IMG/VR virus record: IMGVR_UViG_3300026484_000003
Coordinates: 1-60,371 of that record
DNA from: a virus
Taxonomy: Duplodnaviria > Caudoviricetes
Length of the DNA stretch: 60,371 bases
Reading direction: 5' to 3' (one strand)
Below the pieces are notes generated by a model. The model was not told the origin of the DNA. It made no database searches and worked only from the letters and a program-made list of their open reading frames with translations. The translations under genes were made by a program, and so were the position numbers. Shown one piece after another: positions 4,513 to 42,635 of this stretch (position 1 is the first letter of the stretch; each line of letters starts with the position of its first letter).

Positions 4513-4607
4513 TCTTGCACCTCCAAATCAACAATAACCATGTGTTCCATCGCCTGTGTTTCATATGCTTCCATTTTTACCATCCTTTAATATTAAATAT
4601 TCCGAAT

Positions 4608-4655
4608 GGTAACATTATTACCCTTAGTATAAAATATTAAGGTAATAATTTTACC
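4608..4655. promoter_or_regulatory. Two palindromic operators GGTAA-N5-TTACC overlapping the leftward promoter of the methyltransferase operon
   Basis: GGTAACATTATTACC (4608-4622) and GGTAATAATTTTACC (4641-4655). Confidence 0.8.
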
Positions 4656-4675
4656 CATTAGCATATATTTTGTTG

Positions 4676-5050
4676 CTATGCGTGCCTAAAGTAGCCGTTG
4701 ATTGTATCGCCTATCTCTTCTATTGTGAAATAGTTGAGTGCTTCCGTGACAAGTGGATTTCCATATTCAATCAAGTCTCCTGACTGCTCTTGTCCTACGA
4801 TGAAGTGTACGGCAAGTATTTTTGCTTCATCTGCCGTAAGTGATCTGCCAAACACCTGTTTTTCTGCCTGTGATGTTTCTCCGACTACAAGCTTTTCATA
4901 GAGCACTCCAAATCTCTCTTTTGGATCTCCGTACTTACTTATGTGTAGGATGAGTTGATCGTTATCGACCTCCTCATCCCTAATCTGTAGCTTCTCGTTT
5001 TTAAGAAGCCCTTCTATGTCGTGTCTCCACTCACCCGTAACAAGTATCAT
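4676..5050 (-). CDS. Hypothetical protein coupled to the darB-like gene (same position as P1 ulx)
   Basis: ATGA overlap with the darB-like stop. The identity is from position only. Confidence 0.6.
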   Translation of the reverse strand: MILVTGEWRHDIEGLLKNEKLQIRDEEVDNDQLILHISKYGDPKERFGVLYEKLVVGETSQAEKQVFGRSLTADEAKILAVHFIVGQEQSGDLIEYGNPLVTEALNYFTIEEIGDTINGYFRHA

Positions 5051-8000
5051 GCTAGCCCTTCTTTTTGTAAATTTTCTTCAATCATTGTACCAAGTTTTTT
5101 AAACTTTTCAAAATTCTCTTCACCTAGGTATTCCTTGTAGCCATCCATTGTCATTGCATCGGTTATATCGTTTTTGTATGTTGATATCTTCTTGAGCCTT
5201 GCGGAAGGACTAAAACCGTATGGGTAAATGTAGTTACTTCGGTAGATATTCTCTCCCCTACCTACAAAAACATAACTTTCATCAAGCAGATCATAGAGTT
5301 TGCCTTTAATCATAACAATCCTATCAAAGTTCTCAACAATGTCCTTTTCACTTAGACCGTTTTTGATCTCATCTGAAATTGTTTTTGAGTAGGTTACTAT
5401 CTTCTTTCTTATTGTTTCATCAATGCTGTTAATGTTTGCAAGATCATCTTTATAGTCTTGCCTACCTTTCTCAATAGCACCATGCACAATCTGTTCAACA
5501 TTTGAGTTTTCACTAATTCTTAAATCTCCTGTCAAAATGCGTCCAAGTTTTTCTGTGAAACCTACTTGATCTTTTTTGAGATTGATAATAGCATTGAGCA
5601 TTTTTTTTGCATTGGTCTTGTATGCATCAATGTCTATAGCGGTATTTCCAAATGAAACAAGATACTCTGATTGCTTAATAAGTAAGATTGAGTTAATGAC
5701 ATTCCTTACCGCCACATCTCCACTAACTACAAAATCATCACTAAGTACGGACGGAAGTGCATATCTAATCTTATGATTGACATCGTATACACTTTCTCCG
5801 TATCTTTTTATTGCCAAACGCTGAAAATAGTAAACACTATCTTTTTCGTGATCATACTTGCTTTTTATATTGTCGTTGATTGATTCTCTTAGTGTTTCAG
5901 ACATAATATCGCTTATTTCTGCCTCTTTTTTCTTCTGCTCCTCATGCTTTGCCTTAATATACATTTCTATTTTCTGCTCAACCGTAAGGTCTATTCTGTC
6001 ACCAAACATGACTTCTGCACCACGCGTAATACTTTCAATATCAGATGTATCTACTTTTGCCTCATCGTCACCTTTCTTGACTGCATCAATCCAGTCTTGC
6101 TTCCCATTGATTAGCTGATCGAGGAAGTTATCAAAAGTTCCGTTTTGAAGATACTTATAGACATGAACTTTATCAATAGTGTTTCCTTGCCTTACCGCCC
6201 TTCCCATTGCCTGATGATTTGCATCTGGTGTCTCCGGTAGTTCCATAAGGTGTACTGCTGAAACATCCTTGTTAAAGTCAACCCCCACTTCTCCTGCTTT
6301 ACCAAAGATCATTACCGTCACTTTATTGTCTTGAGAGTTAAACTTTGTTTGAAGATCAAAACCTTTGTCTCCCCCCTTAAAGTAGAACACCTTAGATACC
6401 TCTTTCACTGTGTGTTCAATAAGGTTTCCAATAATGATATGGGATATAAGTGATCTTGAGTAGATAATTTGTTTTGACGTCGGTTTACGCTTGATCTCTT
6501 TTTTCATGTTCTCGATAAGCGTTTGGTATTTTGTGAACTTTTTAATGTCAAATGCCACATCTTTTTTGCCTATAAAACCTGCTTTTTTAAGAGCTGAAAT
6601 AGCCTTAGCCAATACCTTGTCATCTTTTGTTGGAAGATATACTGTTTTGCCTCTCATTGGAGGTCTTGTTGCTTCTGGATGAAGCTTCGTGATTAGTTTA
6701 TTGAGTGGTGTCCTCCATATGTCAGAAAACTTAACTTCCGTTTTAGTATCTATCTCAAGCATACCTGTCTGGTGGTTTAATGAACCCGTTTTAACCTTAA
6801 TTTTAATATTTTCATCAAGTACCGATATTACGGCTTCCTGATCTGTTGTGTTCACCTCTATTGGAACATACCCAAGTCCAACATCAATACCTTGCCCTAA
6901 GCCTCTTGCTTTGCTGATAAATCCGAACATTTCACCAAACTCTTTGGCTAACATTAGCGATGCTACATCATCTTCATTAAGGTCTCCAAGTTCGCCTTTG
7001 TTAAGGTCTCTAACAACTGCCGAATACTTCTCATTCAGCCCACCAAGCATTTTAAAGTTTTCCTTAATGTCTGTTGTTGCTTCAAGATATGCGTTATGCT
7101 TAGAATAGTCCGGCTTTACATTGATTGTATATCCATTCTCTAATGCTCTTGCCTGTTCCTGCTCTGCTGTCCTATAGATAATCTTGTTGTGTCCTATCTT
7201 TTTGAGTAACTTGATATTTTTCAAACCAACCAGTATTTCTTTTTGTGTCATCCCCATACCGTTGGCTTTAACCACCGTCTCCTCTGAAATATCAAAGAAC
7301 ATATCTTCAAACTCTTCCGTGCTTGAAATTCCGTTGCTTTTTAATGTTGATAATGGCGTAGTAAACAGTAGTCCTGTAAGTATTTCGGATGGGCTTGAAG
7401 TCTCCGGTGTAGCTGTCATAAGGATAGTTCCTTTTGAGTCTCCACGCTTGATCGTTTTGATATATTCAGAGAAAAACATCATGCGTGATTTTGTGGATGA
7501 TTTGGCATTGTTTATTCCTTTTGCAGACGACTTTCCTGCTGTTGCGTTCTTGAAATGATGCCCCTCATCAATAATCATCGCATCTACTCCTAAATCCTCA
7601 AGGAAATATGTTGCATTTTTGCCCCAAGATGCAGATGTGATACCAAATTTGTTTAGAGGTGTCGTATTTGTTCGATAGTTTTCATCACCTCCATTCTCCT
7701 CTTTTTTATCCTTGCCTATAAGATAGTCTGTATCCTCATCTGTGAGCTTAATAAACTCTATAGCGGTGCTGTCTGCTATGAGTAGCATTTTATACTTTCT
7801 GCTACGCATAAGCTCCGAAAGATCAGTTTTGTTTTTTGTGTTTACGGTAAGTATTTTTCCCCTCATATCCTCCGTTACTGCCTTCTCAAGCTCTGCAACC
7901 CACTTTGGATATACGGCGTTAGGCACTACAAGCATTGGACGCTTTGCCTTTCCATTGTGGATCATTTGCAAACACGCCATAATGGCTGTAAACGATTTTC

Positions 8001-10506
8001 CAAGTCCGGTATCTTGAGCAATTACTCCTCCTAATTCATTTGCAAACTTGCGTGCATCTGCATTTTGATAGTGTCTCCCCTTCTTGATGATGTCTGATCT
8101 AAGCATACCTTTTAGTTCTGTCTGCTGATCTTCGTTGTACCCATCTTTTGTGTGGTATGTTATGGTTGCTTGAGACTCAAAGTGACTTAATATCTCTTCT
8201 CGATAGTTTGGATTTGACAAAATTTCATTCGTGACAATATTTGAGAACACGGTTTGGTATCTGGAAATTACCGATAAAGCAACACCCTTCAACTGTGATA
8301 CAATCATGGATATATTTTTGCTTTCGGGTAAATATCCGCTCAAACCCCATTCTAAATCTTTGTCGAAATATGTCTTGTTTGACTCTCCACCACTTTGAGA
8401 CACAACAACTCTGTACCAATTGTATTTCATAATTCTACTGTAGCCATCATCCCCGCTGATGCCGTCTATTTTAAGCTCTGAAATTCCATCAATAATGGCT
8501 TTTTCAATTTTTCCTTTCAGTAGCTTATTCTTATAGATAACATCATATAGATCAACATACATTTTAGAATTGATTTTTCTCACAAACTTCAATGAAAATT
8601 TTACATTTTCAATAGGCATTACATCCTTGTATGCCTCCACCGTTTTTTGTTGCTGTTCAATCTTTTTCTGTAGCAGGTCTTTTGGTAGAATTGAGCCATC
8701 AATCATAGATACCTCGTCAAAAACCTTATCGAACGGTTGCTTGTCAACCATTGTTAGGTATCCGTCTTTTGACATAACCTTGCTTCCGGCAATGATAACA
8801 GAATCACTCATAAGCTCATCATCTGAAAAATCATTTTTGTCATAGTGTGGGTAGTATTCATTCTCTTTTGTGATTTGCTTTTTCCCGACAAAAACCTGCT
8901 CTTCCGAGTTCTCAAGCAGTTCGCTTATGTCCTCGACAATTTCGCCGGTAGAAAGATCAATCCTGTTGATCCATCCAAGCATTTTCACAAACAAGGTGTT
9001 ATGCAGTTTGTCTTTATGTTTATCGAGTTTGCTATCTTTTTTCCTAATCAGTTCTATGTCTGATTTATACTCTAAAATCTTCTCTTTTGAGTATGGGTGC
9101 GTAAGAAGTAAATACCGTAGTGCTTCTGAAAGAGATTTATTGTCGAGTATGATTTTCTGGGCATAGAGCAACTGCTCATCATCTTGTGATAGGCGAATTG
9201 ATAATTTATGCTTGTTACTAATCATCTGCTCAAAGTCTGCTTTGCTTTTTTGCTTTTTAACAAGCCTGTCTTTGATGAATGACAATTCTGCCGTCAGTTC
9301 ACTTCTTGTTGATGTTTCAAGTTCAATATAGTTTATCGCATCGCTTGATACTTCTCCATTCCCTGCAATAACATCACGATAGTCGAATGTATTGCTGTAT
9401 TTTGCAGTATTGTGAAGTAGCTCTTTCTTGATATCATCAAGGCTTTTCCCTTCCGGCAACACAACTGTATCACGCTGTGCCATGTGGTGTAGCTTTTCTC
9501 CCTTTTCTTCTGCTTCACGGTGCATCTCTTCTTTTGATTTGAAGCTACCAAGTACCGCTTTTTTGTTCAGGTCAAAATATGTTCCATCAAGAAATTGTGA
9601 GCTGTGTTGATCTTCATGGATACGCTCATTAAATAGCTTCCAGTCTATGTTGTCATTCTTGATTGCTAATGTAACATCAAGCGGGTGTTTCTCAAACACA
9701 AGAATATCTACTACTTGCTCCGTGCCAGTATCTTTAAACATTGCACTCGGTAGCCTTACGCCACCCACAAAGCTACCCTTTTGTAGCATTTTAAGCCTTG
9801 TTGCTTTACGGTCTTTGCCTTTACGCTGTACTGTTGATGATGTGGTTAGGAATACCGCCCTTTTGTTTGGCTTGAGCAGATCAAGAGATTTGAGAATAAA
9901 GTAGTCCTCATTTCTAAGAACATCAGGCATATCTATCTTTTTATACTTTTCACCCCTTACCCCAAACGGAACATTGGTAATGACTGCATCAAAGGAGTTG
10001 TCGCTAAGCGAGTGTGAAAACTCCTCAAAGCTAACCCCCGCCTGAATTTCAGAGTTATCATTGAGTATGTCTGCTATCTTCGCAGAGGTCTTATTTAGGT
10101 CGCATCCAATGATCTGCACTCCATTTGGTGCTTGGCTTGAGAACGCTCCTGCACCGGTGCATGGATCTAAAATTTTATCGCCGTGTTTAACATCAAGAAA
10201 ATTCCAACTTGCCCTTGCAACGCTCTGTGGCGTGAAATATTCGTCATTGTCACCACCGACTGCACCACCGAAACCGGTATATTGCCTAAGTACCTCTTTC
10301 TCCTCCGATGTGTAGAATGATTTGTTTTGAGAGATTATCTGTTTTGCTTTCTGGTTAATCTCTTGTCGCTCTTTAATGTTGGTTACAATTTTGTCCGCCT
10401 CTGCAACATTGAGAAGAACACTGTATGTTGCTATCTTTCTATCAGCAACCCCATTCCCAGATGATCGTTTTTGATTTACAACTTGATCGTATAAATGTCG
10501 TATCAA
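5047..10506 (-). CDS. darB: DarB-like virion protein: N6-adenine methyltransferase fused to an SNF2-type helicase
   Basis: LRQYTGFGG...EYFTP, ILDPCTGAG, NVPF; helicase motifs AQDTGLGKS, IIDEGH, MTATP, QAMGRAVRQGN; 1819 aa. Confidence 0.88.
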   Translation of the reverse strand: MIRHLYDQVVNQKRSSGNGVADRKIATYSVLLNVAEADKIVTNIKERQEINQKAKQIISQNKSFYTSEEKEVLRQYTGFGGAVGGDNDEYFTPQSVARASWNFLDVKHGDKILDPCTGAGAFSSQAPNGVQIIGCDLNKTSAKIADILNDNSEIQAGVSFEEFSHSLSDNSFDAVITNVPFGVRGEKYKKIDMPDVLRNEDYFILKSLDLLKPNKRAVFLTTSSTVQRKGKDRKATRLKMLQKGSFVGGVRLPSAMFKDTGTEQVVDILVFEKHPLDVTLAIKNDNIDWKLFNERIHEDQHSSQFLDGTYFDLNKKAVLGSFKSKEEMHREAEEKGEKLHHMAQRDTVVLPEGKSLDDIKKELLHNTAKYSNTFDYRDVIAGNGEVSSDAINYIELETSTRSELTAELSFIKDRLVKKQKSKADFEQMISNKHKLSIRLSQDDEQLLYAQKIILDNKSLSEALRYLLLTHPYSKEKILEYKSDIELIRKKDSKLDKHKDKLHNTLFVKMLGWINRIDLSTGEIVEDISELLENSEEQVFVGKKQITKENEYYPHYDKNDFSDDELMSDSVIIAGSKVMSKDGYLTMVDKQPFDKVFDEVSMIDGSILPKDLLQKKIEQQQKTVEAYKDVMPIENVKFSLKFVRKINSKMYVDLYDVIYKNKLLKGKIEKAIIDGISELKIDGISGDDGYSRIMKYNWYRVVVSQSGGESNKTYFDKDLEWGLSGYLPESKNISMIVSQLKGVALSVISRYQTVFSNIVTNEILSNPNYREEILSHFESQATITYHTKDGYNEDQQTELKGMLRSDIIKKGRHYQNADARKFANELGGVIAQDTGLGKSFTAIMACLQMIHNGKAKRPMLVVPNAVYPKWVAELEKAVTEDMRGKILTVNTKNKTDLSELMRSRKYKMLLIADSTAIEFIKLTDEDTDYLIGKDKKEENGGDENYRTNTTPLNKFGITSASWGKNATYFLEDLGVDAMIIDEGHHFKNATAGKSSAKGINNAKSSTKSRMMFFSEYIKTIKRGDSKGTILMTATPETSSPSEILTGLLFTTPLSTLKSNGISSTEEFEDMFFDISEETVVKANGMGMTQKEILVGLKNIKLLKKIGHNKIIYRTAEQEQARALENGYTINVKPDYSKHNAYLEATTDIKENFKMLGGLNEKYSAVVRDLNKGELGDLNEDDVASLMLAKEFGEMFGFISKARGLGQGIDVGLGYVPIEVNTTDQEAVISVLDENIKIKVKTGSLNHQTGMLEIDTKTEVKFSDIWRTPLNKLITKLHPEATRPPMRGKTVYLPTKDDKVLAKAISALKKAGFIGKKDVAFDIKKFTKYQTLIENMKKEIKRKPTSKQIIYSRSLISHIIIGNLIEHTVKEVSKVFYFKGGDKGFDLQTKFNSQDNKVTVMIFGKAGEVGVDFNKDVSAVHLMELPETPDANHQAMGRAVRQGNTIDKVHVYKYLQNGTFDNFLDQLINGKQDWIDAVKKGDDEAKVDTSDIESITRGAEVMFGDRIDLTVEQKIEMYIKAKHEEQKKKEAEISDIMSETLRESINDNIKSKYDHEKDSVYYFQRLAIKRYGESVYDVNHKIRYALPSVLSDDFVVSGDVAVRNVINSILLIKQSEYLVSFGNTAIDIDAYKTNAKKMLNAIINLKKDQVGFTEKLGRILTGDLRISENSNVEQIVHGAIEKGRQDYKDDLANINSIDETIRKKIVTYSKTISDEIKNGLSEKDIVENFDRIVMIKGKLYDLLDESYVFVGRGENIYRSNYIYPYGFSPSARLKKISTYKNDITDAMTMDGYKEYLGEENFEKFKKLGTMIEENLQKEGLA

Positions 10507-10527
10507 GGAATACCCCTTTTTAGTTTT

Positions 10528-10558
10528 ATTGTAGTCTAAAAAGAGGTCTTTTTTTCAA
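10528..10558 (-). promoter_or_regulatory. Putative late promoter TTGAAA-N19-TACAAT (darB-like gene)
   Basis: Same architecture upstream of five other structural operons. Confidence 0.65.
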
Positions 10559-10562
10559 ACGC

Positions 10563-12899
10563 TTATGCTGTCTTTCCTATGTGTGCCGTACTAAGCCTGT
10601 CAAGTTTTCTGGAAAGTTGTGCAAAATCAATTTTGTACCACTCTCCATCATTTGAATACCCGTCTTGATAGTTTCTGTGATATATTTTTTCTGCTTCTTG
10701 CTTGTTTTTTGCCCCAAGAATAAATTTATCCTCATCAAAAGTTCCATTATTTCGTAACTGCTTGATATAGAAAACTGGTCTCTGCTCCATTTGCTTCACT
10801 GTTGCCTCATGCGATAAGAAAACATCTACCTCGTCACCGTCAGCACCGTGCGTTCCATCAAAATAACCATAGTCGTCTTGTAGTTCACTTTCCCATTCTG
10901 TACCGTTATCGTCAATCCCGTTCCTAAATGTTCCACGCTCTGACTCTATCGTGATAGCTATTCCTCCGATAGTGATCTTTTTGTCAGGCAATAGGACACT
11001 GTTTTCAATAGAATCAAAAACTGTTGTTCCATTCAACAGGAATTGTGCAAGTTCGGCTTCGGTCTTTGTAACCGCATAAGCATTTGATACGCTCCCCGTA
11101 CTTGCATCGTATTGAACCATTGACCACTCAGACTTATCAACATTTCTACCAAGTTTGCTATTGTATTCTTTCCACTCTGAATATTCTGGCTTGTAGCCCT
11201 CATTGCAGAGCTTCTCAATGAAGTCCTTTTTCTCCATAACTTCACCATCGTATCCAATTAGATTAGATAAGACTTTTTTAGCCCTTCCCCTTCTCATCGG
11301 CGTTAATGTATTGAGATAGTGGTGTGCTATGCCCTCTTCTTCCTTCTCCTCTTCTTTGCGTGCAAGTTCGGCTTCAATCTCTTTTGCTTTTGCCAATTCA
11401 CGCTCACGCTCACGCTCCTGTTCTCTTTTTACTTTTCTTTCCATATCATCCCTGATCTCATCTTCACTTGGCATCGTAATTGGCATAATGACTGTTTTTG
11501 TTCCATCTTCTGCCGTTATAATAAACGGGAGTGTAGGCTCATCCATTTCAAAGGTGATCTCTTTGCTATCTCCTATTGCATCTAAGACATATTTTGAAGC
11601 AAACCCGATACTCTTATTGCCCATGTTGCTTTTTGTCTCTATTTTGCCTATGTTGATCGTTTTAACGGTTGGGTGCATAGTATCTTCGCCTTCAACATGA
11701 TATGTTGAAACATTAATGTTGTTATCAGAGAATGCGAAGCGTACTTCATCGGCTTTTCTAAGTATTGCTTCTAGTTCTTTTGTATTGATTTTTACGGAGG
11801 GCTTAGGATACATAGGTACAACTCTTTGATAGTCTGGGAAACGCCCTACTATTCTATGTGCCGTGTGTTTGTAGTCTTTTGTTTCCGTATATGTTACTGA
11901 CTTACCATCTGACGCTTCCCCTATTTTGATGATCTCAATATCTTTATCAACCACATTTTTTTGAATGATATACTGCCCATCTTTACCAGTGACCTTAAAC
12001 GGTTTTGAGATAGTCAGTCGCCTTGTATTAGTTCCTACTGCTTTTGCCTCTCCGTTTTCAGCGTCAATCAATATCCCGTTCAGTTCAAATTTTGGGTTGT
12101 TTTTGTCTGATGCTTTCTGTGTCGTAAGTAACGATTTAAGCATGCTTTGAGTGATTTTAATAGTAAGGTCTGCATTGCTTAATTCAAGGGCTTTACCTGC
12201 AATGTCGTAAGTTGTTTTTATCCCTCCGTCAGTGTCTCTAAATTCACCATTATCATTAATGTAAATTTCACCCGTTACTGATTTTAGATCATAGGCTTTC
12301 ATTCCGTTAATGTCCGGTATATCAAGTTTCTCTTTTGTGATCAGCGTCCGGTCAGCATCGGTTATCTTGAGTTCTCCATTTTTGATAGATATGTATGTGG
12401 TGTCGAGTTCTCTCTCTGTAGCACCAAAAAACTTGATAAACTTCTTGATTTTACTTACCGTATCTTTGCCTATTATCTTGCTGTAAGGCAATGGCTTTGC
12501 CGTTGCTTCTTTTGATGATTTTATAATGGTCGGGATCATATTTTTTACCGCTTCCTTAAATTGATCCATTGGATTGGCATCTACTTCTGCACCAATAGCA
12601 TAAGCTCCAAGATCAGGCACAACAACATACCAATACCCTTTTTGCGGAATAATGTAAACAGTTCCGACCTCTTCGGTTTCAAGCTTTCCTTTTGCACTTG
12701 CCAATCTAAAGATAGCGATATGATCTGGGTTGAGCATATTTCGCACTCTTACATATCCTTTGGGTGTTTCTTGATTTCGTAATTTATATTCTGCTGTTTT
12801 TTTGTCTCTTTCTGCCTTTATGTCTGCAAGAATTTCTTTTTTACCGCCCATAGCGGTCATTTTAACCTTGACCGCTTTTTCAAATAGTTTTTTAATCAT
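10563..12899 (-). CDS. Polyvalent internal-head protein: beta-clamp-like domain + coiled coil + DarA_C-like domain + InPase-type pyrophosphatase domain
   Basis: Clamp motifs NNPKFELNGILID, GTNTRRL, GRFPDYQRVVP, IGFASKYVLD, TVIMPI. DarA_C-like KKDFIEKL...VTKTEAELA. InPase ITIESERGTFRNG...DYGYF.GTHGADGDEVDVF...FDEDKFILG. Confidence 0.8.
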   Translation of the reverse strand: MIKKLFEKAVKVKMTAMGGKKEILADIKAERDKKTAEYKLRNQETPKGYVRVRNMLNPDHIAIFRLASAKGKLETEEVGTVYIIPQKGYWYVVVPDLGAYAIGAEVDANPMDQFKEAVKNMIPTIIKSSKEATAKPLPYSKIIGKDTVSKIKKFIKFFGATERELDTTYISIKNGELKITDADRTLITKEKLDIPDINGMKAYDLKSVTGEIYINDNGEFRDTDGGIKTTYDIAGKALELSNADLTIKITQSMLKSLLTTQKASDKNNPKFELNGILIDAENGEAKAVGTNTRRLTISKPFKVTGKDGQYIIQKNVVDKDIEIIKIGEASDGKSVTYTETKDYKHTAHRIVGRFPDYQRVVPMYPKPSVKINTKELEAILRKADEVRFAFSDNNINVSTYHVEGEDTMHPTVKTINIGKIETKSNMGNKSIGFASKYVLDAIGDSKEITFEMDEPTLPFIITAEDGTKTVIMPITMPSEDEIRDDMERKVKREQERERERELAKAKEIEAELARKEEEKEEEGIAHHYLNTLTPMRRGRAKKVLSNLIGYDGEVMEKKDFIEKLCNEGYKPEYSEWKEYNSKLGRNVDKSEWSMVQYDASTGSVSNAYAVTKTEAELAQFLLNGTTVFDSIENSVLLPDKKITIGGIAITIESERGTFRNGIDDNGTEWESELQDDYGYFDGTHGADGDEVDVFLSHEATVKQMEQRPVFYIKQLRNNGTFDEDKFILGAKNKQEAEKIYHRNYQDGYSNDGEWYKIDFAQLSRKLDRLSTAHIGKTA

Positions 12900-12935
12900 C
12901 TTACACGTCCACCCATTCCTGAATAATAAAACACA

Positions 12936-14129
12936 TTACTTCTCCCCCTTCCGGTAAGAAAAATCACCGTTAATAGGCTTGATGATCTCTTTCCCAAGCC
13001 TGATCTCAAAGTCCGGTAACTCTTTCAGTTCCTTACCATCAACGGAGATAGTAATGTGTGGCTTGTAGCTGTCATAATCCCATGTAGCACCGAGACGTTT
13101 CGCCCTATTGTATCTGGCTGTAAGTTTTTTGGACTCAACAAAGAGGACTAAAACTTTTTCTTTTCCAAGAATACCGCTTCCAGTGATCTTGTCAATAATG
13201 ATTTCATCATCTTTAGGCTCTAAATCAACCTTCTTTTTTGAATATACGATTGTGATATGTGGATCTTCTACGGGTACAAGACCTTGAGCCTTCACCCACT
13301 CTTTCAACTGCTTTGCATTGACTACTTTCCGACTTACATAAGTTCCGGTTTCTACTGCATCAAGTTCTAGGTTTGCTTCTTTGAGTTTTTTTACCGCCCC
13401 CTTCCATGCCTGATATGTTTTAAATTCACGCTCTTTTTTCTTTACTGCGTCCATATTCGCACCAAACAAGCCTCCACCATCAATGCTGTCGTTTTTTACT
13501 TCACCCTCACCTGCAATTTCAGATAGTATATTGATTACCTCACTGTAGAGTTCGTGATCCCCAAGTTTGTCCTCATTTGCTTCGATAAGGTCAACTTGTG
13601 GCTCAATGCTCTCCCAGTCCTCAATGGTTGCATCATCGTTTGTGATAATGTCCTTTATCTCTTCCATTGCGTAGGTTAGCTTTGTGATGAGTTGATCATC
13701 TGGTTCTGTTGTTTCGAGGTCGTGGCTTTCGAGTGCTTCTAATACTTTTTTCTTTGTGAACTCTTTTGCTTTGCTTTCGAGATATTCACTAATAAGTGCA
13801 TGAGCAGTCTGAACATTGGATTGTCTTGTTACCATAGTCGGAGCTTCATCTAAGTATCTTTGCACTAACTCTTCTGCAAGTGTAAAGTCTGTAAATGTTT
13901 CAAGCTTCTCCGTATCTTTAATTCTGGTTAAATTCATAGCAAGTTGGCTTGACTGTGTTGTGATCTCACTTTTGCTTAACTTCTCTCCGTCACCGCCAAG
14001 TTTTATATATAGCCCTTTGATTGCCTTCTGGATTTCCCTCTTTGCCTTAAAGCCCTTTTCGGCTTCAAGTTCTGCGTACTTTGCTTTGATCTCTTTTTGG
14101 ATAGCTCTTTTTTCTTTAAACCCCAACAT
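12936..14129 (-). CDS. Internal-head protein with a C-terminal Acb1-like 2H phosphoesterase
   Basis: Two HxT motifs (PHITIVYS, YKPHITIS) with YVSRKVVNA and GATWDYDSY context, as recalled for T4 57B/Acb1 relatives. Confidence 0.8.
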   Translation of the reverse strand: MLGFKEKRAIQKEIKAKYAELEAEKGFKAKREIQKAIKGLYIKLGGDGEKLSKSEITTQSSQLAMNLTRIKDTEKLETFTDFTLAEELVQRYLDEAPTMVTRQSNVQTAHALISEYLESKAKEFTKKKVLEALESHDLETTEPDDQLITKLTYAMEEIKDIITNDDATIEDWESIEPQVDLIEANEDKLGDHELYSEVINILSEIAGEGEVKNDSIDGGGLFGANMDAVKKKEREFKTYQAWKGAVKKLKEANLELDAVETGTYVSRKVVNAKQLKEWVKAQGLVPVEDPHITIVYSKKKVDLEPKDDEIIIDKITGSGILGKEKVLVLFVESKKLTARYNRAKRLGATWDYDSYKPHITISVDGKELKELPDFEIRLGKEIIKPINGDFSYRKGEK

Positions 14130-16639
14130 TATTCATTCTCCGATTTCATAAGTGCTGTAAGCTGATCGGCTAATCTGTTTAGCTCATCTTCATATTTATC
14201 CATCAAGCCTTTTTCTTCAATGAGTTCTGCGACTTCATCAAGTTTTTTTTCAAATCTTTGTGAGTCGGGTTGCTCTGCCACCTGCTGCAGGAAGCCATCT
14301 ATCATGTGGTTATCATCTTCTGTTTTTGTCTGGTTCTCATGTAAGAAGCTCATAGCACCCTTGATGATGCCACTCATAGCGTCTTTGTGTTTCACCATAT
14401 CCCAAAGTGCAAGAATTTCTCTGGCATCATATTTGTCTGCATCTGCTACATTATACATAACCCCACCGTGACTATCTTTGATGATCTGCTTGTAAACTTC
14501 GTTTTCTTTTATTCTGGCTTCGAGTTCTTGATCTGTAAGATCATTGCTCTCTGGAACTTCATCCCCATTACCCCCCTTGATCTCACTAAGTGTCTGCTTG
14601 GTGTAATAGAAGTCCAACTCTACACCAAGACGGGTAAGTTCCTCAGTGTTGACATACCCAAGTTCTGCCATTTCACGATCACCGTTCAAGATAGCATAAC
14701 CATAAGCATCTGATGGGCTGTTCGCTTCTGTAATGTACCAGTCACTCCCACCACTAAAGTAGTGAAGTTGTACCTGTACGCTGTCGCCTTCACCGTCTTT
14801 TTCATATAACTTTGGTAGATTTGTAATTGTTTCGTAAAGATCATTCACAACATCGCTAAACTCATAATCTTCACTACCGATATTTTGGCTTAGGATTGAG
14901 TATTGGGCTTCGCTCATAAAGCCTTTGATTGCTTCGAGTTTGCCTTTTGTGGATAGTTGCTTATTTTCTTCCCACGCATCCTGCTTCTCAAGTATCTCCA
15001 TCGCTTTATCCACAATGAGGTTTGATACTGACAACATTTTCATATCATCAATTCTATCAACCTCTTTTTCTACCATTTTTCTAACATCCTCTTTCGAGTA
15101 TGTTTTGTCTGGATACATATCTCCAAGCACTTTGCTTGAAATTGGCAATGCGTACCGACCGATTTTCTCTGCCGGATCTCCTGCTCTTTTTTGCTCACCT
15201 TTTAGTTCCAAATGTCTAACCTCAATAGTTCCTTTCTTCACATTCCCGTAAATGCCAACCACTGATGCACGCCCATCTTCACCGTATGCAACAAATTGTT
15301 GTGCTGTGCCTACCATATCCCATCTATCTGCTTCGATAAGTGCTTTCTGCTCGCCCAGTGAAAGTTCTCCAAAGTTTCTAATAATGTCAATGTTTTTATT
15401 CAGTAGGTCTGTGCTGTTTACTGCATCTCTGTCATAATCGAACATATCATCATCTTCTCTCTGCTTATCCTTAGCCAACTCTTCATTGATCTTCTCGATA
15501 ATAACTTTTCTCGGTCTATTTGTAGATAGCCATCTCTCTTTTACGCTCCACCCCTCTTTCTCTCCAATAGGTAGATACAGAACGCTTCCTCTTCCATCTT
15601 CACCTACTGAAAATTCCTTCTCTGCTGTAATGAATGAAGCGTACTGATGATGATCTACTTCATAATCAAGTTCGGTTTTTTCTTTAATAAATTCAGCATT
15701 ACGGATAAGATCAACTGACGGCATTTCTACACCACTTTTATCTTCAATCTTGTCCGCACCTATTGTAATAAAATGGATCACTTTTTTCATGTGTGTTATG
15801 ATTGATTTTTCTACACCTTCAATGGATACTTCTTTTTTGTCGATTGCGTCCAGTGTTGTACCGCCTACAGTAAATGAGTAGTTAATGCCTCCTTTCAGCT
15901 TCTCATCTTTTGCAAATGCTTCGCGTATTGCAGTGATGTATTTTTCTGATCCAGTAGGCAGGTTGATCGTGTAGGTGTTCTCTTTGATGTCATTGATGAT
16001 CTTATTGGCTTCCGTAACAACATCACTCAAGTCAAGCTTCATGCCGTCAATCTCTTTTTCAAGTTTTTTGATCTTTAACTCATCATCATCAATATTGTTT
16101 GCAACAAACTTCCTGTGCGATGCCTCAATGATCTTTTTCAGTCTTGCTACTGTAAGCGCTGTATCAATGTCAGTGTCTCCGTTTTTGTAGATACCTTTTG
16201 TAATGTCCTTGTTGTTTAGCATGAAGTGTGTAATAATCACATCTTTGTTTGGTTTATAGTTCTTAAAATCCTTGATATTTCTTGCAAGGACTGTAAGAAT
16301 TTGCCCATCGTCAAACTCAAGTGTGAATGGTTGATATTTTGTTTTTTCACCCTTTCCTACGCCAGATACATTGAAGCCATAATGCACCGTAAATACATTA
16401 TCGTCTGCATGAACTTTGTCGTGTAGTTTTTGAGATAGCTTCTTAGCCACTTTGTTTACTTCCTTCCAAAGCAACTGTTGGTTTTCAGATGTGATCGCAT
16501 CCATAGCAACACTGCTGTCGCCAAAAGGATAGTTCATGTCAAGCTCTAAAAGCCTACTTGCTAAATTGTCTGATTTCTGGAAAATGAGTCCATCCAAAAA
16601 CAGTTCATCTCTTACTTCTTGAAATTCTCTTTGTGTCAT
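14129..16639 (-). CDS. darA: DarA-like internal head protein (DarA_N + DUF2958-like domain)
   Basis: FDDGQILTVL...FMLNNKDIT...VARLKKIIEASHRKF (DarA_N-like). LPKLYE...LHYFSGGSDWYITE...AELGYV...VELDFYY (DUF2958-like). Confidence 0.75.
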   Translation of the reverse strand: MTQREFQEVRDELFLDGLIFQKSDNLASRLLELDMNYPFGDSSVAMDAITSENQQLLWKEVNKVAKKLSQKLHDKVHADDNVFTVHYGFNVSGVGKGEKTKYQPFTLEFDDGQILTVLARNIKDFKNYKPNKDVIITHFMLNNKDITKGIYKNGDTDIDTALTVARLKKIIEASHRKFVANNIDDDELKIKKLEKEIDGMKLDLSDVVTEANKIINDIKENTYTINLPTGSEKYITAIREAFAKDEKLKGGINYSFTVGGTTLDAIDKKEVSIEGVEKSIITHMKKVIHFITIGADKIEDKSGVEMPSVDLIRNAEFIKEKTELDYEVDHHQYASFITAEKEFSVGEDGRGSVLYLPIGEKEGWSVKERWLSTNRPRKVIIEKINEELAKDKQREDDDMFDYDRDAVNSTDLLNKNIDIIRNFGELSLGEQKALIEADRWDMVGTAQQFVAYGEDGRASVVGIYGNVKKGTIEVRHLELKGEQKRAGDPAEKIGRYALPISSKVLGDMYPDKTYSKEDVRKMVEKEVDRIDDMKMLSVSNLIVDKAMEILEKQDAWEENKQLSTKGKLEAIKGFMSEAQYSILSQNIGSEDYEFSDVVNDLYETITNLPKLYEKDGEGDSVQVQLHYFSGGSDWYITEANSPSDAYGYAILNGDREMAELGYVNTEELTRLGVELDFYYTKQTLSEIKGGNGDEVPESNDLTDQELEARIKENEVYKQIIKDSHGGVMYNVADADKYDAREILALWDMVKHKDAMSGIIKGAMSFLHENQTKTEDDNHMIDGFLQQVAEQPDSQRFEKKLDEVAELIEEKGLMDKYEDELNRLADQLTALMKSENE

Positions 16640-16642
16640 TTT

Positions 16643-17266
16643 TTAAACCCTTACTGTTTTGTAGTTGTCTTTGATGTCGTCTGCCGACTCCTGATCGTCA
16701 AATGTTACGATTTCGCTTTGCTTCTTAGTCCATCCGTTTCTGCCGTAGAACTCACCCTCTTTATTGAGTACGATAAATTTACCGCTTCCTTTTTGAAGGT
16801 CTTGTTTCAATGCTGTAAGTCTGGATAGTGTCAATTCCTGATCTTCATCGTCACCCAGTTGGTCGATCACCTTATTCATATCCGCTTTGCTTACCTTGAC
16901 TTTCATTTCTGCCTTTTGTTCTCTTCGGATAGTCCTTACTACTTCTCTTCCAAGCGTTGCAGGGGAGACCTTTACTCCTGTTTCGTCTTTACTGATTGAC
17001 TCAATAATTTTGTCTTTTTCTCTTTGCGTATCAACAACAACACGTGCTACATTACCGCCTTTTTCAACAAACAGAAGAATGTCGCCAAATTCCAGTTCAA
17101 GGTCATAGATGATTGCCTGTCTTTTTGTGGTTGGTGTTCTGTAGATTCTGTGATCGTTGTCGTGGACTCCGATAATTGGAATGTTATGTAAGTTTTTTTC
17201 TATCTCTTTGTAGAGTTTTGAAGATCTCACCTCTTGAGGTGTCATTATTTGTTTAGGAAATTGCAT
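16643..17266 (-). CDS. Probable Hdf-like head protein, first gene of the dar operon
   Basis: Immediately upstream of darA, as hdf is in P1. Sequence resemblance is weak. Confidence 0.4.
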   Translation of the reverse strand: MQFPKQIMTPQEVRSSKLYKEIEKNLHNIPIIGVHDNDHRIYRTPTTKRQAIIYDLELEFGDILLFVEKGGNVARVVVDTQREKDKIIESISKDETGVKVSPATLGREVVRTIRREQKAEMKVKVSKADMNKVIDQLGDDEDQELTLSRLTALKQDLQKGSGKFIVLNKEGEFYGRNGWTKKQSEIVTFDDQESADDIKDNYKTVRV

Positions 17267-17293: not shown

Positions 17294-17324
17294 ATTGTAT
17301 CAATTTAGATGGTGTAAAATTCAA
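17294..17324 (-). promoter_or_regulatory. Putative late promoter TTGAAT-N19-TACAAT (dar operon)
   Basis: Shared architecture with the other late promoters. Confidence 0.65.
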
Positions 17325-17327
17325 AAC

Positions 17328-17855
17328 CTAAAGGTAGGCTCCTATCTTTGATTTAATGTCGAGTGCATTATCTTTTTCCTTGTTTGGGCTGTCTGCACTT
17401 GACCCGCTTGAAGGCGTACTGTCTGCAACCGATTGTGCAAGATCAGCCATTAACTGAACTAAGTTTGTTGCATCATTCCTGATATTTACCTTTTTGCTCC
17501 AAATGTCAACCTGATTTGCAGATTTTTCGGATGTTCCGGCATTGTCTCCGTTCGCACCCATTATTTTTATGATGTTGTTGCCATATATTTGCACTTCACT
17601 GTTTTCAATTCTTGAAATTCCACTCTTGATAAGTGAAATTCCTTGAGATAGTGAAGAGAGTGCATAAACAACGCCATAATCATCTTCAACAAGCAATACT
17701 TCTGTTCCGATTTTTATGTTTGGCTGTTGTTCTCTCTCATCTAAGTTCAACGGGCTACATTTAACAACATGGTCTATAACTTGATCTGTGTTGTATAGCT
17801 TTACTGTCAAGAACCTATCTTGAACAGACACAACCGTTCCAACTCTAATGTTCAT
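17328..17855 (-). CDS. Probable baseplate spike (gpV/gp5-like)
   Basis: N-terminal OB-like IRVGTVVSV...IKIGTEVLL followed by beta-rich repeats; follows a hub-sized gene. Confidence 0.6.
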   Translation of the reverse strand: MNIRVGTVVSVQDRFLTVKLYNTDQVIDHVVKCSPLNLDEREQQPNIKIGTEVLLVEDDYGVVYALSSLSQGISLIKSGISRIENSEVQIYGNNIIKIMGANGDNAGTSEKSANQVDIWSKKVNIRNDATNLVQLMADLAQSVADSTPSSGSSADSPNKEKDNALDIKSKIGAYL

Positions 17856-18660: not shown

Positions 18661-18669
18661 TTTCTACCT

Positions 18670-37019: not shown

Positions 37020-37029
37020 ATTGCCCCTC

Positions 37030-41582: not shown

Positions 41583-42635
41583 TTAATATTTAAACTCGAA
41601 CATATCAACCGTTGGATCGTCACGGCGTGTTTTTTTAGGTTTCCTGATGCTGTCAAGCACTGCTTCATCGAAACTGTATTGATCTCTATTCCCAACCGAT
41701 AGCAAACTGCCAAATGATGCACTATCCAAAACAATTTCATCATTCTCGATTTTAAGTCCTGCTGTTTCTATTGCATCGCTTAAAACCTTTAGCCTTTCAG
41801 CCTTCTCATTAAGAATATTGATCTTGCTATTTAGAGGTTCTACGCTGTCGAGTACCGCATCTTCAACTTCCTTTTTGTTTTGCTTCTTGAGCGTTTCTAT
41901 TTTTTCTTTCTGCCCTTTGATCGTGATATTGCAGTTATCTATTGTGATCTTCTGCTCATCTATCTTCTCTTCAAGTGTTGCTATGGTGTCCTGCATTGCT
42001 TTTATTTTGCTTTTGAACTCCAATGCCTGTGATACATTGTCTTGATGTACCAAAAGGTCTTTGGCTTCATCATACAGATCATCGTGTGTTCCGATAGCGT
42101 CAACAACCGCATCGTGAATGGCTGTATCGAGCTGACATGACCCATCACTGCAAATCGAGTCCATCACTACACGGTTTCCGTTGAAGTTCGGAGAAAGGAC
42201 AAAATCACTTCCGTAAAATATACCTTTGTTCACATCCCACACAAAAGAAAAACCACCAATCCCGTTTTCAATCATCTTGATAACGCTTTTTGTTTTGTTC
42301 CCTACTGTTTCTACAAGTAGTGCTTCGTATGAAACAATCTTGTCCTTGATTGAGAGTTTCGTAACCTTTCCGATAGGCTCTTGCTCCTCCCCAGTATTAT
42401 GGTTCCGCTCATTTGCCAAATACCCCTGTTCCTTGTGTCTTGCACCGTGTCCGTAGAAAGTCATTGCATACCCGTCTCTGATAGCCTTCTGGACTTCTTT
42501 TGCCCGGATAAGTTTCTGCACTTTTGCAAGGTTGTAGTTACGCGGCATACCGAAATTGTGACCGTGTTCGGTGACATCAAAACTTATAGATACTTTATGC
42601 GTTCCATTTCCTAAATCTTCGATTGTATTCTTCAT
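41583..42635 (-). CDS. Prohead protease with a C-terminal scaffold-like coiled coil (P1 Pro-like)
   Basis: FYGHGAR, IGGFSF, FYGSDFVLSPNFNGNR; directly after the portal gene. Confidence 0.8.
   Translation of the reverse strand: MKNTIEDLGNGTHKVSISFDVTEHGHNFGMPRNYNLAKVQKLIRAKEVQKAIRDGYAMTFYGHGARHKEQGYLANERNHNTGEEQEPIGKVTKLSIKDKIVSYEALLVETVGNKTKSVIKMIENGIGGFSFVWDVNKGIFYGSDFVLSPNFNGNRVVMDSICSDGSCQLDTAIHDAVVDAIGTHDDLYDEAKDLLVHQDNVSQALEFKSKIKAMQDTIATLEEKIDEQKITIDNCNITIKGQKEKIETLKKQNKKEVEDAVLDSVEPLNSKINILNEKAERLKVLSDAIETAGLKIENDEIVLDSASFGSLLSVGNRDQYSFDEAVLDSIRKPKKTRRDDPTVDMFEFKY

What the first reader, a model, noticed from the sequence alone, without database searches (positions are those of the whole stretch)
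4676..17266. Expanded Dar head-cargo cassette: a candidate co-injected, multi-pronged anti-defence kit
Seen: about a fifth of the genome is one co-oriented block behind two late-type promoters. It holds an Hdf-position gene, DarA_N + DUF2958-like, a 2H phosphoesterase fusion, a beta-clamp/DarA_C/InPase fusion, a DarB-like methylase-helicase and a small coupled gene. Known: P1 DarA and DarB are packaged in the head and protect incoming DNA from type I restriction. Inference: this cassette extends the same delivery route to cyclic-nucleotide signalling defence and to clamp-dependent processes, acting before any phage transcription.
Basis: partly seen in the sequence, partly recalled or inferred. 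Interest (0 to 1): 0.85.

Follow-up and report, generated by a model that had tools for sequence, protein, structure and literature searches.

The report
P1-type head-cargo operon carrying Acb1
A 60-kb uncultured phage distantly related to P1 carries a late operon of probable head-packaged anti-defence proteins, with a cyclic-nucleotide-degrading enzyme and a DNA-clamp fusion among them, and shared cut-site motifs suggest the capsid protease releases these modules inside the head.

Summary
The observation mostly holds. Six tightly coupled minus-strand genes (4676-17266, 21% of a complete 60,371-bp phage genome) encode:
- a gene in the Hdf position
- a DarA_N protein
- an Acb1 (2H) fusion
- a full three-domain beta-clamp/InPase fusion
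- a DarB-like methylase-helicase
- a small gene in the Ulx position

DarA_C was not found. DUF2958 is sub-threshold.

The phage is a distant P1 relative: portal, Pro, terminase, baseplate, DarA and DarB all give BLAST hits to P1.

Two results strengthen the head-cargo reading:
- Both cassette promoters match one pattern, TTGAA-N20-TAYAMT. Its only other copies precede the capsid, portal and baseplate operons.
- The motif h-D-[SAG]-[IV] lies at the cassette's domain junctions. It is enriched in the structural proteins but not elsewhere. In P1 the h-[DE]-[SAG]-[IV] form occurs once in gp23, at the Edman-mapped Pro cut E120/S121, and once in DarA, at its cryo-EM boundary.

The cassette proteins are therefore probably processed in the prohead, releasing a ~140-aa Acb1 module and a ~149-aa InPase module.

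Packaged multi-domain anti-defence proteins, including 2H and InPase domains, were described by Iyer et al. 2017. This is a new variant of that kind. The clamp cargo and the address-and-release layout are the new parts. Packaging itself is not shown.

The parts
17294..17324 (-). Promoter-like site 1 (TTGAAT-N19-TACAAT), upstream of the Hdf-slot gene
   Evidence: One of 5 matches to TTGAA-N20-TAYAMT in the window. All 5 are on the minus strand and intergenic. Expected 0.35; 0 of 100 shuffles reached 5.
16643..17266 (-). 207-aa gene in the Hdf slot, directly upstream of the DarA-like gene; no cut-site motif
   Evidence: Same position and size as P1 hdf, 203 aa. No Pfam, PHROG, NCBIfam or PADLOC hit. 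hhalign against P1 Hdf gives E 0.07, at the DarA_N core. The AF2 model has two helices, a beta-sheet, then helices. Four homologues are known.
14129..16639 (-). 836-aa DarA-like protein. DarA_N lies at 16124-16507. A predicted cut M46-D47|A48 lies at 16493-16504. A region shared with an annotated internal head protein lies at 14579-14938.
   Evidence: Pfam DarA_N E 7.2e-8. BLAST to P1 DarA aligns residues 46-178 with 67-207. Residues 568-689 are 44% identical to the 'internal head protein' of Xanthomonas phage Rb1. Motif sites at 46 and 263.
12936..14129 (-). 397-aa Acb1 fusion. The conserved N-terminal leader is at 13992-14129. Predicted cuts are at 13443-13454 and 13353-13364. The Acb1 domain is at 12957-13349.
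   Evidence: Pfam Acb1 E 1.7e-30. PDB 7t26 Acb1 at E 7.5e-10, with both HxT motifs aligned. The leader is shared with P0004 and P0005, which carry other downstream modules. Motif sites at 226 and 256.
10563..12899 (-). 778-aa clamp/InPase fusion. The three-domain beta clamp is at about 11466-12497. A disordered linker with the predicted cut F628-D629|S630 is at 11007-11018. InPase is at 10605-10982.
   Evidence: The linker, residues 589-637, has pLDDT below 50. The [LF]DS[IV] site before InPase is conserved in P0007-P0010.
10528..10558 (-). Promoter-like site 2 (TTGAAA-N19-TACAAT), upstream of the DarB-like gene
5047..10506 (-). 1819-aa DarB-like protein. The N6-adenine methylase is at 9682-10260. 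The SNF2/DExH helicase is at 6184-8079. Tandem motif sites between the two are at 8458-8493.
   Evidence: Pfam. phrog_11801 1e-132. Four collinear BLAST segments to P1 DarB, best E 3.9e-29. NVPF, GLGKS and DEGH motifs are read from the translation. Motif sites.
4676..5050 (-). 124-aa gene coupled to the DarB-like gene by an ATGA overlap, in the position of P1 ulx
   Evidence: P1 darB-ulx order. No family hit and no BLAST hit to P1 at E<=0.01.
41583..42635 (-). Homologue of the P1 prohead protease Pro, outside the finding. It is the presumed enzyme for the motif and carries 4 motif copies itself.
   Evidence: BLAST to P1 pro: E 2.5e-8 over 305 columns. Motif sites at 158, 178, 262 and 327.
56850..58502 (-). 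Major capsid protein candidate, outside the finding, with a predicted cut M101-D102|G103 at 58191-58202
   Evidence: phrog_1014. It sits in the same gene order as P1 23-22-21-pmgG. The cut would leave 448 aa, equal to mature P1 gp23.

Best explanation
This is a P1-type Dar (internal head protein) operon in a distant, smaller relative of phage P1.

Inferred steps of how it works:
1. The operon is transcribed late, from two promoters of the same class as those of the capsid, portal and baseplate operons.
2. The DarA-like protein, probably with the Hdf-slot protein, lines the procapsid as in P1. The other proteins join through N-terminal leader sequences.
3. The Pro-type prohead protease cuts at h-D|[SAG]-[IV] sites between modules. 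This removes a 47-residue DarA propeptide. It frees an Acb1 phosphodiesterase of about 140 aa and an InPase module of about 149 aa. It probably also separates the methylase and helicase halves of the DarB-like protein.
4. The products leave the head with the DNA. The DarA and DarB homologues shield the DNA from restriction, Acb1 hydrolyses CBASS-type cyclic oligonucleotides, and the InPase and clamp modules act on nucleotides or on the incoming DNA.

Shown here: the domain identities, homology to P1, gene coupling, the shared promoter pattern, and the distribution of the motif with its coincidence with P1's mapped cut.

Inferred, not shown: packaging, cleavage, ejection and every enzymatic activity.
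For: 1. P1 kinship. BLAST hits link the window to P1 prt, pro, pacB, bplA, gp25, pmgG, gp21, ssb, darA and darB. The local gene order matches P1's 23-22-21-pmgG.

2. Domains are as listed in the observation check.

3. Promoters. TTGAA-N20-TAYAMT gives 5 matches, all minus-strand and intergenic: before the Hdf-slot gene, before the DarB-like gene, before the capsid gene, before the portal operon, and at 37239-37269. Expected 0.35; 0 of 100 shuffles reached 5.

4. Cut-site motif. I defined [LMFIV]D[SAG][IV] from the module junctions of the Acb1-fusion family and the pre-InPase site. I then counted it in every chosen ORF:
- 21 structural proteins (37266-58502): 17 observed against 3.81 expected; 0 of 2000 shuffles reached it
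- 6 cassette proteins: 10 against 2.31; 1 of 2000
- 33 other proteins: 4 against 2.85; 605 of 2000

5. P1 cross-check. The [DE] form occurs exactly once in gp23, as L119-E120-S121-V122. Edman sequencing placed that cut between E120 and S121 (PMC9024508, passages). It also occurs exactly once in DarA, at residues 67-70. The cryo-EM model starts at residue 70, and residues 1-69 are thought to be removed by Pro (PMC12810830, section 8).

6. The window DarA site at residue 46 aligns with P1 DarA residue 67. The window capsid site leaves 448 aa, equal to mature P1 gp23.

7. Site positions. The sites lie just before the Acb1 domain (256 against domain start 261). They also lie in a disordered linker before InPase (628 against 640). 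They are conserved in homologues.

8. Leader. The same N-terminal leader heads proteins with different downstream modules. In P1 the first 30 residues of DarB are enough to target a reporter protein to the capsid (PMC9024508 abstract).

9. Both enzyme domains occur fused to portal proteins in solved structures: InPase in 9b41 and a 2H domain in 8hds.

10. The Hdf-slot protein has no motif copy. P1 Hdf is reported to be unprocessed.
Against: - There is no virion proteome, no expression data and no cultured phage.
- The count for the cassette itself is not independent, because the motif was derived there.
- The strict form of the motif and the [DE] extension were chosen after seeing data.
- The promoter pattern was written after reading four of its five sites, so its shuffle statistic is flattering. 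It is also not the P1 Lpa-type late promoter.
- Some motif copies lie inside folded domains and are probably never cut. Examples are residue 439 in the clamp and residue 172 in methylase motif IV.
- Homology of the Hdf-slot and Ulx-slot genes to P1 is not shown.
- DarA_C and ddrB-ParB domains are absent.
- T4 Acb1 is a free enzyme of about 150 aa, so packaging is not needed for Acb1 to work.
- Stand-alone phage clamps such as phrog_947 are annotated as replication factors.
Confidence: 0.65

Rival explanations
1. The cassette is expressed late but its enzymes work in the cytoplasm. Only the DarA and DarB homologues are packaged. The Acb1 fusion and the clamp/InPase fusion act in the producing cell late in infection, quenching CBASS signals raised by structural proteins or helping late replication. 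On this reading the motif copies in them are not used.
For: - Acb1 homologues in 1083 GenBank phage records are short stand-alone genes. None of the 1083 covers 80% or more of the fusion.
- Stand-alone phage clamps are annotated as processivity factors.
- No DNA polymerase or clamp loader was found among the 36 window proteins scanned in PHROGs, so a clamp that works with the host polymerase is conceivable.
Against: - The motif sits at the Acb1 and InPase domain borders and is conserved in homologues whose flanks have diverged.
- The pre-InPase site lies in a disordered linker.
- The leader is conserved while downstream modules are swapped.
- These genes are translationally coupled or closely spaced inside the Dar operon.
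- The InPase family is mostly found in virion-associated polyvalent proteins (PMC5512222 section 23 passage).
Confidence: 0.2
2. The role is mainly structural. The block is chiefly capsid-assembly machinery. DarA and Hdf act as internal scaffold and head-size determinants, as in P1. The attached enzymes are passengers with little effect on defence.
For: In P1, DarA and Hdf bind the inner capsid surface at penton-hexon junctions and affect head morphogenesis (PMC12810830, abstract and section 4).
Against: - The catalytic motifs look intact: HxT twice in Acb1, and NVPF, GLGKS and DEGH in the DarB-like protein.
- The Pfam hits to Acb1 and InPase are strong.
- The same architectures persist in relatives that are 35-48% identical.
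Confidence: 0.08
3. The cassette is a phage-borne defence or exclusion system. The methylase-helicase and its neighbours would form an R-M-like or DISARM-like system that acts against competing elements.
For: PADLOC gives domain-level hits of the 1819-aa protein to mad2, DrmD, ZorD and DpdE models.
Against: - These hits cover only generic methylase or SNF2 stretches, with a best E of 2.7e-16.
- None of the other 5 cassette proteins hits PADLOC.
- No nuclease domain was found.
- The protein is collinear with P1 DarB.
Confidence: 0.04

Closest known systems
Phage P1 Dar system (Hdf, DarA, DdrA, DdrB; DarB, Ulx)
   Same: - Homologous DarA_N protein and DarB-like methylase-helicase.
- The same local orders, hdf-darA-accessory genes and darB-small gene.
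- P1-like portal, Pro, terminase and baseplate genes.
- The predicted DarA propeptide cut falls at the aligned position.
   Different: - Both P1 loci are joined into one 12.6-kb block.
- The DdrA and DdrB slots hold an Acb1 fusion and a clamp/InPase fusion. No ddrB-ParB or DarA_C domain is present.
- The acidic residue at the cut site is Asp rather than Glu.
- The promoters are not of the P1 -22-box type.
- The genome is 60 kb rather than 94.8 kb.
Polyvalent proteins of phages (Iyer, Burroughs, Anand, de Souza, Aravind 2017; PMC5512222)
   Same: Virion-delivered multidomain anti-defence proteins. DarA-N, 2H, InPase, methylase and SNF2 domains are all on their list of phage-type domains. They proposed that the 2H domains counter nucleotide-activated defence.
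   Different: - Here the domains are spread over several shorter, coupled genes rather than one giant polypeptide.
- No built-in zincin peptidase domain was found in the cassette. Release is predicted to use the prohead protease.
- The word 'clamp' occurs 0 times in that paper's main text. Its supplementary architecture files could not be seen.
T4 Acb1 (gene 57B) and solved Acb1 7t26
   Same: Pfam Acb1 at E 1.7e-30. About 31% identity to T4-like gp57B. Both HxT motifs are present.
   Different: This one is fused behind a 260-residue modular N-terminal extension and sits in a late Dar operon. None of the 1083 GenBank phage records with a hit has this extended form.
T4 internal proteins: capsid targeting sequence plus gp21 cleavage (recalled, and mentioned in PMC9024508 passages)
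   Same: An N-terminal address directs packaging, the prohead protease cuts after an acidic residue, and the anti-restriction cargo is ejected with the DNA.
   Different: The sequences are unrelated. Here there are several cut sites between modules, and the cargo includes enzymes against signalling-based defence.
Portal proteins with C-terminal 2H or InPase domains (PDB 8hds Pam3 portal; 9b41 gp19 portal)
   Same: The same enzyme domains are placed inside the capsid.
   Different: There the domains are attached to the portal itself. Here they sit on separate cargo proteins with predicted release sites.

Membership tests
P1 Dar system | DarA homologue with a DarA_N domain | tested here: met
   Pfam PF18788 E 7.2e-8, 32.7 bits against cut-off 27. 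Pairwise BLAST to P1 DarA E 9e-6.
P1 Dar system | DarA_C domain | tested here: not met
   No PF18789 hit in the 6 cassette proteins at E<=0.01 or in sub-regions at E<=10. P1 DarA hits it at 5.7e-17.
P1 Dar system | Hdf: a DarA_N paralogue encoded just upstream of darA | tested here: inconclusive
   Position and size match. No Pfam hit. hhalign against P1 Hdf gives E 0.07. The Foldseek PDB search found no match at E<=0.001.
P1 Dar system | DarB: a large N6-methylase plus helicase protein | tested here: met
   Pfam N6_Mtase, SNF2 and Helicase_C. Four collinear BLAST segments to P1 DarB.
P1 Dar system | Ulx, DdrA and DdrB homologues | tested here: not met
   No BLAST hit to P1 ulx, ddrA or ddrB at E<=0.01. 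No ddrB-ParB domain. Only the positions correspond.
P1 Dar system | Presence in the virion, ejection with the DNA and protection from type I restriction | not testable with these tools
   The phage is uncultured and known only from metagenomes.
P1 Dar system | N-terminal processing of DarA by the prohead protease | tested here: inconclusive
   A motif copy at residues 46-49 aligns with P1 DarA 67-70. Cleavage itself was not observed.
Acb1 (PF23474) anti-CBASS phosphodiesterase | Family HMM above its cut-off, with two catalytic HxT/S motifs | tested here: met
   106.1 bits against cut-off 27. HITIV and HITIS align with the corresponding motifs of 7t26.
Acb1 (PF23474) anti-CBASS phosphodiesterase | Hydrolysis of cyclic di- and trinucleotides | not testable with these tools
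   Needs a biochemical assay.
Bacterial beta sliding clamp (DnaN) | Three-domain clamp fold | tested here: met
   The AF2 model aligns over ~380 columns to 366-aa clamps, E 1e-21, TMt 0.65-0.70.
Bacterial beta sliding clamp (DnaN) | DnaN equivalog score; ring dimer loaded on DNA | tested here: not met
   TIGR00663 scores 73.4 bits against cut-off 137.65. Dimerisation and loading were not tested.
InPase (PF18823) of polyvalent proteins | Family HMM above its cut-off | tested here: met
   113.7 bits against cut-off 26.8. 8818 library proteins match at E<=0.001; below rank 14 the 150 listed matched at the InPase domain, in proteins of up to 5300 aa.
Phage polyvalent proteins (Iyer 2017) | Several conflict-related domains in virion-delivered polypeptides beside packaging genes | tested here: inconclusive
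   The domain set matches. Delivery is inferred. The proteins have 1-3 recognised domains each rather than up to 15.

The most novel reading that the evidence does not exclude
The operon may be a plug-and-play delivery platform. An N-terminal address plus h-D|[SAG]-[IV] release sites would let any enzyme be loaded into the head and freed there.

One of its cargoes would be a complete sliding clamp. After ejection the clamp would thread onto the ends of the incoming linear DNA without a loader. There it could guard the ends, block translocating restriction or RecBCD-type enzymes, or tether partner cargo to the DNA.

A virion-delivered DNA clamp would be a new class of injected counter-defence protein.
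Probability: 0.2. Interest if true: 0.85.

Novelty: new variant of a known kind. Interest (0 to 1): 0.6.

Why it matters
If the cargo reading is right, three things follow.
- Counter-measures against signalling-based immunity such as CBASS could arrive ready-made with the DNA rather than waiting for early gene expression.
- The Dar route of P1 would be a general, modular delivery system, not only an anti-restriction device.
- The motif gives exact, testable predictions. It names cut sites in this phage. In P1 it predicts DarA E68|A69 and further candidate sites in Ulx, DdrB and the portal.

An address sequence plus release sites is also the kind of grammar useful for loading chosen proteins into phage heads. 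P1 work has begun this with the DarB leader (PMC9024508 abstract).

Tried and rejected
Searches for relatives that found little or nothing:
- No megablast match of the cassette in GenBank phages.
- Single-protein scans of IMG/VR with the Acb1 fusion and the DarA-like protein found nothing.
- The IMG/VR scan with the clamp fusion gave only two stand-alone clamp genes. One of them sits in an unrelated phage, between terminase and replication genes.
- Alignment-based scans of IMG/VR with A1 and A3, and of species genomes with A3, found nothing.
- The metagenome scan gave one 4.2-kb contig, L007. It is a close relative with the same order (DarA-like, Acb1 fusion, clamp fusion) and with module insertions.
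- tblastn of P0158 against phages and plasmids found nothing.

Comparisons within the cassette and of the small genes:
- All-against-all BLAST within the cassette showed no paralogy.
- The Hdf-slot protein gave hhalign E 0.07 against P1 Hdf and 0.15 against the window's own DarA_N region.
- Its model (pLDDT 68.9) had no Foldseek PDB match at E<=0.001.
- The ESM Atlas gave no usable hit for the Hdf-slot protein or for the Acb1-fusion leader.
- Complex prediction on DarA-like residues 45-400 with the Hdf-slot protein returned no verdict. It is not used as evidence either way.

Other negative checks:
- PDB sequence search with the DarA-like protein found nothing at E<=10.
- P1-type late promoters (the -22 box) were read from the P1 record and not seen in the window.
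- The generic sigma-70 scan was at chance level: 54 sites against 48.4 expected.
- No tRNA gene and no Rfam family.
- No RNA holder is listed among public sequencing runs.
- Contigs from two other runs cover much of the cassette at 80-95% identity, but they are fragments and show nothing about expression.

Literature searches:
- I found no paper describing packaged Acb1 or a clamp as head cargo. The searches were 'Acb1, virion, packaged', 'sliding clamp, internal head protein, phage', 'Acb1, polyvalent' and 'Acb1, portal, fused'. I saw listings for all four.
- I read passages of 10.1101/2025.07.12.664507 and PMC13728456 and the outline of 10.1101/2025.07.23.666291.
The architecture files of Iyer 2017 and the supplementary figures of the two P1 papers may bear on the clamp and on the cut sites.
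- Hobbs et al. 2022 on Acb1 was not read. It is known here only from the review passages and from recall.

Full report
WHAT IS THERE

The window is a complete 60,371-bp virus genome with direct terminal repeats. Coordinates 4676-17266 hold six minus-strand ORFs of 207, 836, 397, 778, 1819 and 124 aa. That is 20.9% of the genome. The junctions are tight. Three are TAA-AAA-ATG, TAATG and ATGA. The other two are gaps of 36 and 56 nt.

DOMAINS

- 836-aa protein. It has DarA_N at residues 45-172 (E 7.2e-8, above the Pfam cut-off). It aligns with P1 DarA itself, residues 46-178 against 67-207. Residues 568-689 are 44% identical to part of a 1221-aa 'internal head protein' of Xanthomonas phage Rb1. 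That protein sits in a comparable block with a DarA_N gene, a metallopeptidase and an SNF2 ATPase.
- 397-aa protein. It ends in an Acb1 domain at residues 261-391 (E 1.7e-30). It is about 31% identical to T4-like gp57B. Both HxT motifs align to solved Acb1 7t26.
- 778-aa protein. It ends in InPase at residues 640-765 (E 7.5e-33). Its middle is a clamp. The Pfam hits there are sub-threshold, but phrog_947 gives 1.6e-18 and TIGR00663 gives 1.6e-20, below the equivalog cut-off. PDB clamps match residues 242-476.
- An AF2 model of the 778-aa protein, built from a 24-row alignment, has mean pLDDT 81.9. Foldseek aligns about 380 columns to full 366-aa clamps (E 1e-21, TMt 0.65-0.70). All three clamp domains are therefore present, at about residues 135-478. 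The model also shows N-terminal helices, a small beta domain (49-131), a long helix (479-521), a small domain (525-583) and a disordered stretch (589-637).
- DarA_C was not found, although P1 DarA hits it.
- 1819-aa protein. It has N6_Mtase, SNF2 and Helicase_C domains. It gives four collinear BLAST segments to P1 DarB. NVPF, GLGKS and DEGH motifs are visible in the translation.
- The 207-aa and 124-aa proteins hit no family in any of the four libraries.

THE PHAGE IS A DISTANT RELATIVE OF P1

Window ORFs give BLAST hits to P1 portal, Pro, PacB terminase, BplA, gp25, PmgG, gp21, Ssb, DarA and DarB. The order capsid candidate, sheath, two small genes, PmgG-like mirrors P1's 23-22-21-pmgG.

In P1 the Dar genes lie at two loci: LPdar-lydA-lydB-hdf-darA-ddrA-ddrB, and darB-ulx. 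Here both are joined. The 207-aa gene takes the hdf slot and the 124-aa gene takes the ulx slot. The Acb1 fusion and the clamp/InPase fusion take the ddrA and ddrB slots.

Homology of the two small genes to Hdf and Ulx is not shown:
- hhalign of a 5-row alignment against P1 Hdf gives E 0.07, aligned at the DarA_N core.
- The model of the 207-aa protein has two helices, a beta-sheet and then helices. This resembles the published description of Hdf. It found no PDB match.

PROMOTERS

I read the intergenic regions and saw a common layout. The pattern TTGAA-N20-TAYAMT then gave 5 matches in the window. All are on the minus strand and all are intergenic:
- 17294-17324, before the Hdf-slot gene
- 10528-10558, before the DarB-like gene
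- 58539-58569, before the capsid gene
- 44758-44788, before the portal operon
- 37239-37269, before the genes at 36501-37049 and downstream

The expectation is 0.35, and 0 of 100 shuffles reached 5. I wrote the pattern after seeing four of these sites, so the statistic is generous. Even so, the two cassette promoters clearly belong with those of the structural operons. They do not resemble P1's -22-box late promoters.

A CANDIDATE PROHEAD-PROTEASE MOTIF

The few relatives of the Acb1 fusion (4 besides itself) are mosaics. Four of the five family members share a near-identical leader of about 46 residues. The modules behind it are inserted, deleted or replaced. P0004 has no Acb1 domain, and P0005 has an unrelated body of about 500 aa.

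The junctions between modules repeatedly read h-D-[SAG]-[IV]. The same motif sits just before InPase in the clamp fusion. It is conserved there in P0007-P0010, although the flanks differ.

I fixed the pattern [LMFIV]D[SAG][IV] and counted it in 60 chosen ORFs:

| Set | Observed | Expected | Shuffles reaching it |
|---|---|---|---|
| 21 structural proteins (37266-58502) | 17 | 3.81 | 0 of 2000 |
| 6 cassette proteins (the discovery set) | 10 | 2.31 | 1 of 2000 |
| 33 other proteins | 4 | 2.85 | 605 of 2000 |

A stricter form, [LM]D[SA][IV], was chosen after seeing the hits. It gives 13, 5 and 0 copies in the same three sets.

Carriers of the motif include the Pro homologue (4 copies), the portal, the capsid protein (2 copies) and two small proteins with acidic N-terminal halves and very basic tails (3 or more copies each).

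CROSS-CHECK IN P1

With D or E allowed, the motif occurs exactly once in P1 gp23, as L119-E120-S121-V122. It occurs exactly once in P1 DarA, as L67-E68-A69-I70.
- Gonzales et al. determined by Edman degradation that gp23 is cut between E120 and S121, leaving 448 residues (PMC9024508, passages).
- The cryo-EM model of DarA starts at residue 70. Residues 1-69 are thought to be removed by Pro (PMC12810830, section 8).
- The window DarA-like site M46-D47-A48-I49 is the first aligned position against P1 DarA residue 67.
- A cut at D102|G103 of the window capsid protein leaves 448 residues, the same as mature P1 gp23.
- The Hdf-slot protein has no copy of the motif, and P1 Hdf is reported not to be processed.

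I conclude that h-[DE]|[SAG]-[IV] is very probably the Pro-type cut site. It follows that the cassette proteins are substrates, which places them in the prohead.

PREDICTED PRODUCTS

- DarA-like protein without its first 47 residues
- An Acb1 module, residues 258-397
- An InPase module, residues 630-778
- A clamp module, residues 1-629
- Possibly separate methylase and helicase parts of the DarB-like protein, from the tandem sites at 672 and 680

Copies at residue 439 (inside the clamp) and residue 172 (methylase motif IV) are probably buried and not used.

ADDRESS SEQUENCES

In P1 the first 30 residues of DarB are enough to direct a reporter into the capsid (PMC9024508 abstract). By analogy, the conserved leader of the Acb1-fusion family is a candidate address. 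The same holds for the conserved first ~18 residues of the clamp fusion, which are kept in L007 ahead of an insertion of about 110 residues. This is inference.

HOW COMMON IT IS AND WHAT IS KNOWN

Iyer et al. 2017 described 'polyvalent proteins' delivered with phage DNA. They list DarA-N, 2H and InPase among the phage-type domains. They proposed that the 2H domains may degrade nucleotides of nucleotide-activated defence, and they noted fusions of 2H to MuF and portal proteins.

Solved portal proteins carry these domains at their C-termini: 8hds for the 2H domain and 9b41 for InPase. The general idea is therefore in print.

What I did not find in print (searches; 'clamp' occurs 0 times in the Iyer main text):
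- a clamp as head cargo
- an Acb1-family enzyme in a P1-type Dar operon
- a consensus cut site for Pro

The clamp/InPase architecture is rare.
- Among 1.84 billion representative proteins, only 9 match the 778-aa protein at E<=1e-30.
- Clamp plus InPase was confirmed in P0007-P0011.
- Several 445-600-aa proteins match only the clamp unit.
- Among the 50 BFVD rows shown, those that align over about 360 or more columns are mostly stand-alone clamps of about 320-470 aa. The rest align over about 130-340 columns, mostly with much longer proteins.

Related populations occur in contigs of two further hydrothermal-vent metagenome runs from other studies.

RIVAL READINGS

- The enzymes could act in the cytoplasm late in infection without being packaged. 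T4 Acb1 is a free enzyme and phage clamps are usually replication factors. No polymerase or clamp loader was found among the 36 window proteins scanned. The position and conservation of the cut sites, and the conserved leader, argue against this but do not exclude it.
- A defence-system reading has only generic domain hits in PADLOC.

VERDICT

This is a real P1-type Dar operon with new cargo.

The added value here is the link to late structural promoters and the protease motif.

Noticed in passing
window 53443-54027 and 54031-54876 (minus strand): Two small proteins of 194 and 281 aa have acidic N-terminal halves and very basic, K/R-rich C-terminal tails. The acidic halves carry 3 or more copies of the LD[SA][IV] motif. 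They look like processed internal DNA-binding or scaffold-like head proteins. The 194-aa one is homologous to the C-terminal part of P1 gp21.
   Followed up: partly
L003/L006 (phage P1): ulx, ddrB, prt: The h-[DE]-[SAG]-[IV] motif also occurs in P1 Ulx (LEAV at residue 15), in DdrB (3 copies) and near the portal C-terminus (3 copies). These may be further Pro cut sites in P1.
   Followed up: no
window 3307-4512 and 4513-4675: A C5-cytosine (type II / orphan) DNA methyltransferase lies directly downstream of the cassette. The 163-nt spacer before it holds two GGTAA...TTACC hairpin-like repeats.
   Followed up: no
window 17328-19374: Three ORFs of 180, 271 and 234 aa lie between the NinG/Rap gene and the first cassette promoter. 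They have no family hit. I do not know whether they are late genes.
   Followed up: partly
L002 (Xanthomonas phage Rb1, PQ569993, 46.5-64.6 kb): An analogous block follows a baseplate gene: a DarA_N gene, a 1221-aa 'internal head protein', an M12B-type metallopeptidase and a very large SNF2 ATPase. This suggests Dar-like cargo blocks with varied content in unrelated phages.
   Followed up: no
L007 (4.2-kb metagenome contig): A close relative has the same gene order. It carries extra modules in all three proteins seen: about 130 aa in the DarA-like C-terminal part, 102 aa in the Acb1 fusion and about 110 aa after the clamp-fusion leader.
   Followed up: partly
window 41583-42635: The Pro homologue has a protease-like N-terminal part and a long, probably coiled-coil C-terminal part with four motif copies. 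It may be a protease-scaffold fusion that cuts itself.
   Followed up: no
whole window: No tRNA gene and no Rfam family was found. The public runs that hold the sequence are labelled hydrothermal vent metagenome. The host is unknown.
   Followed up: no
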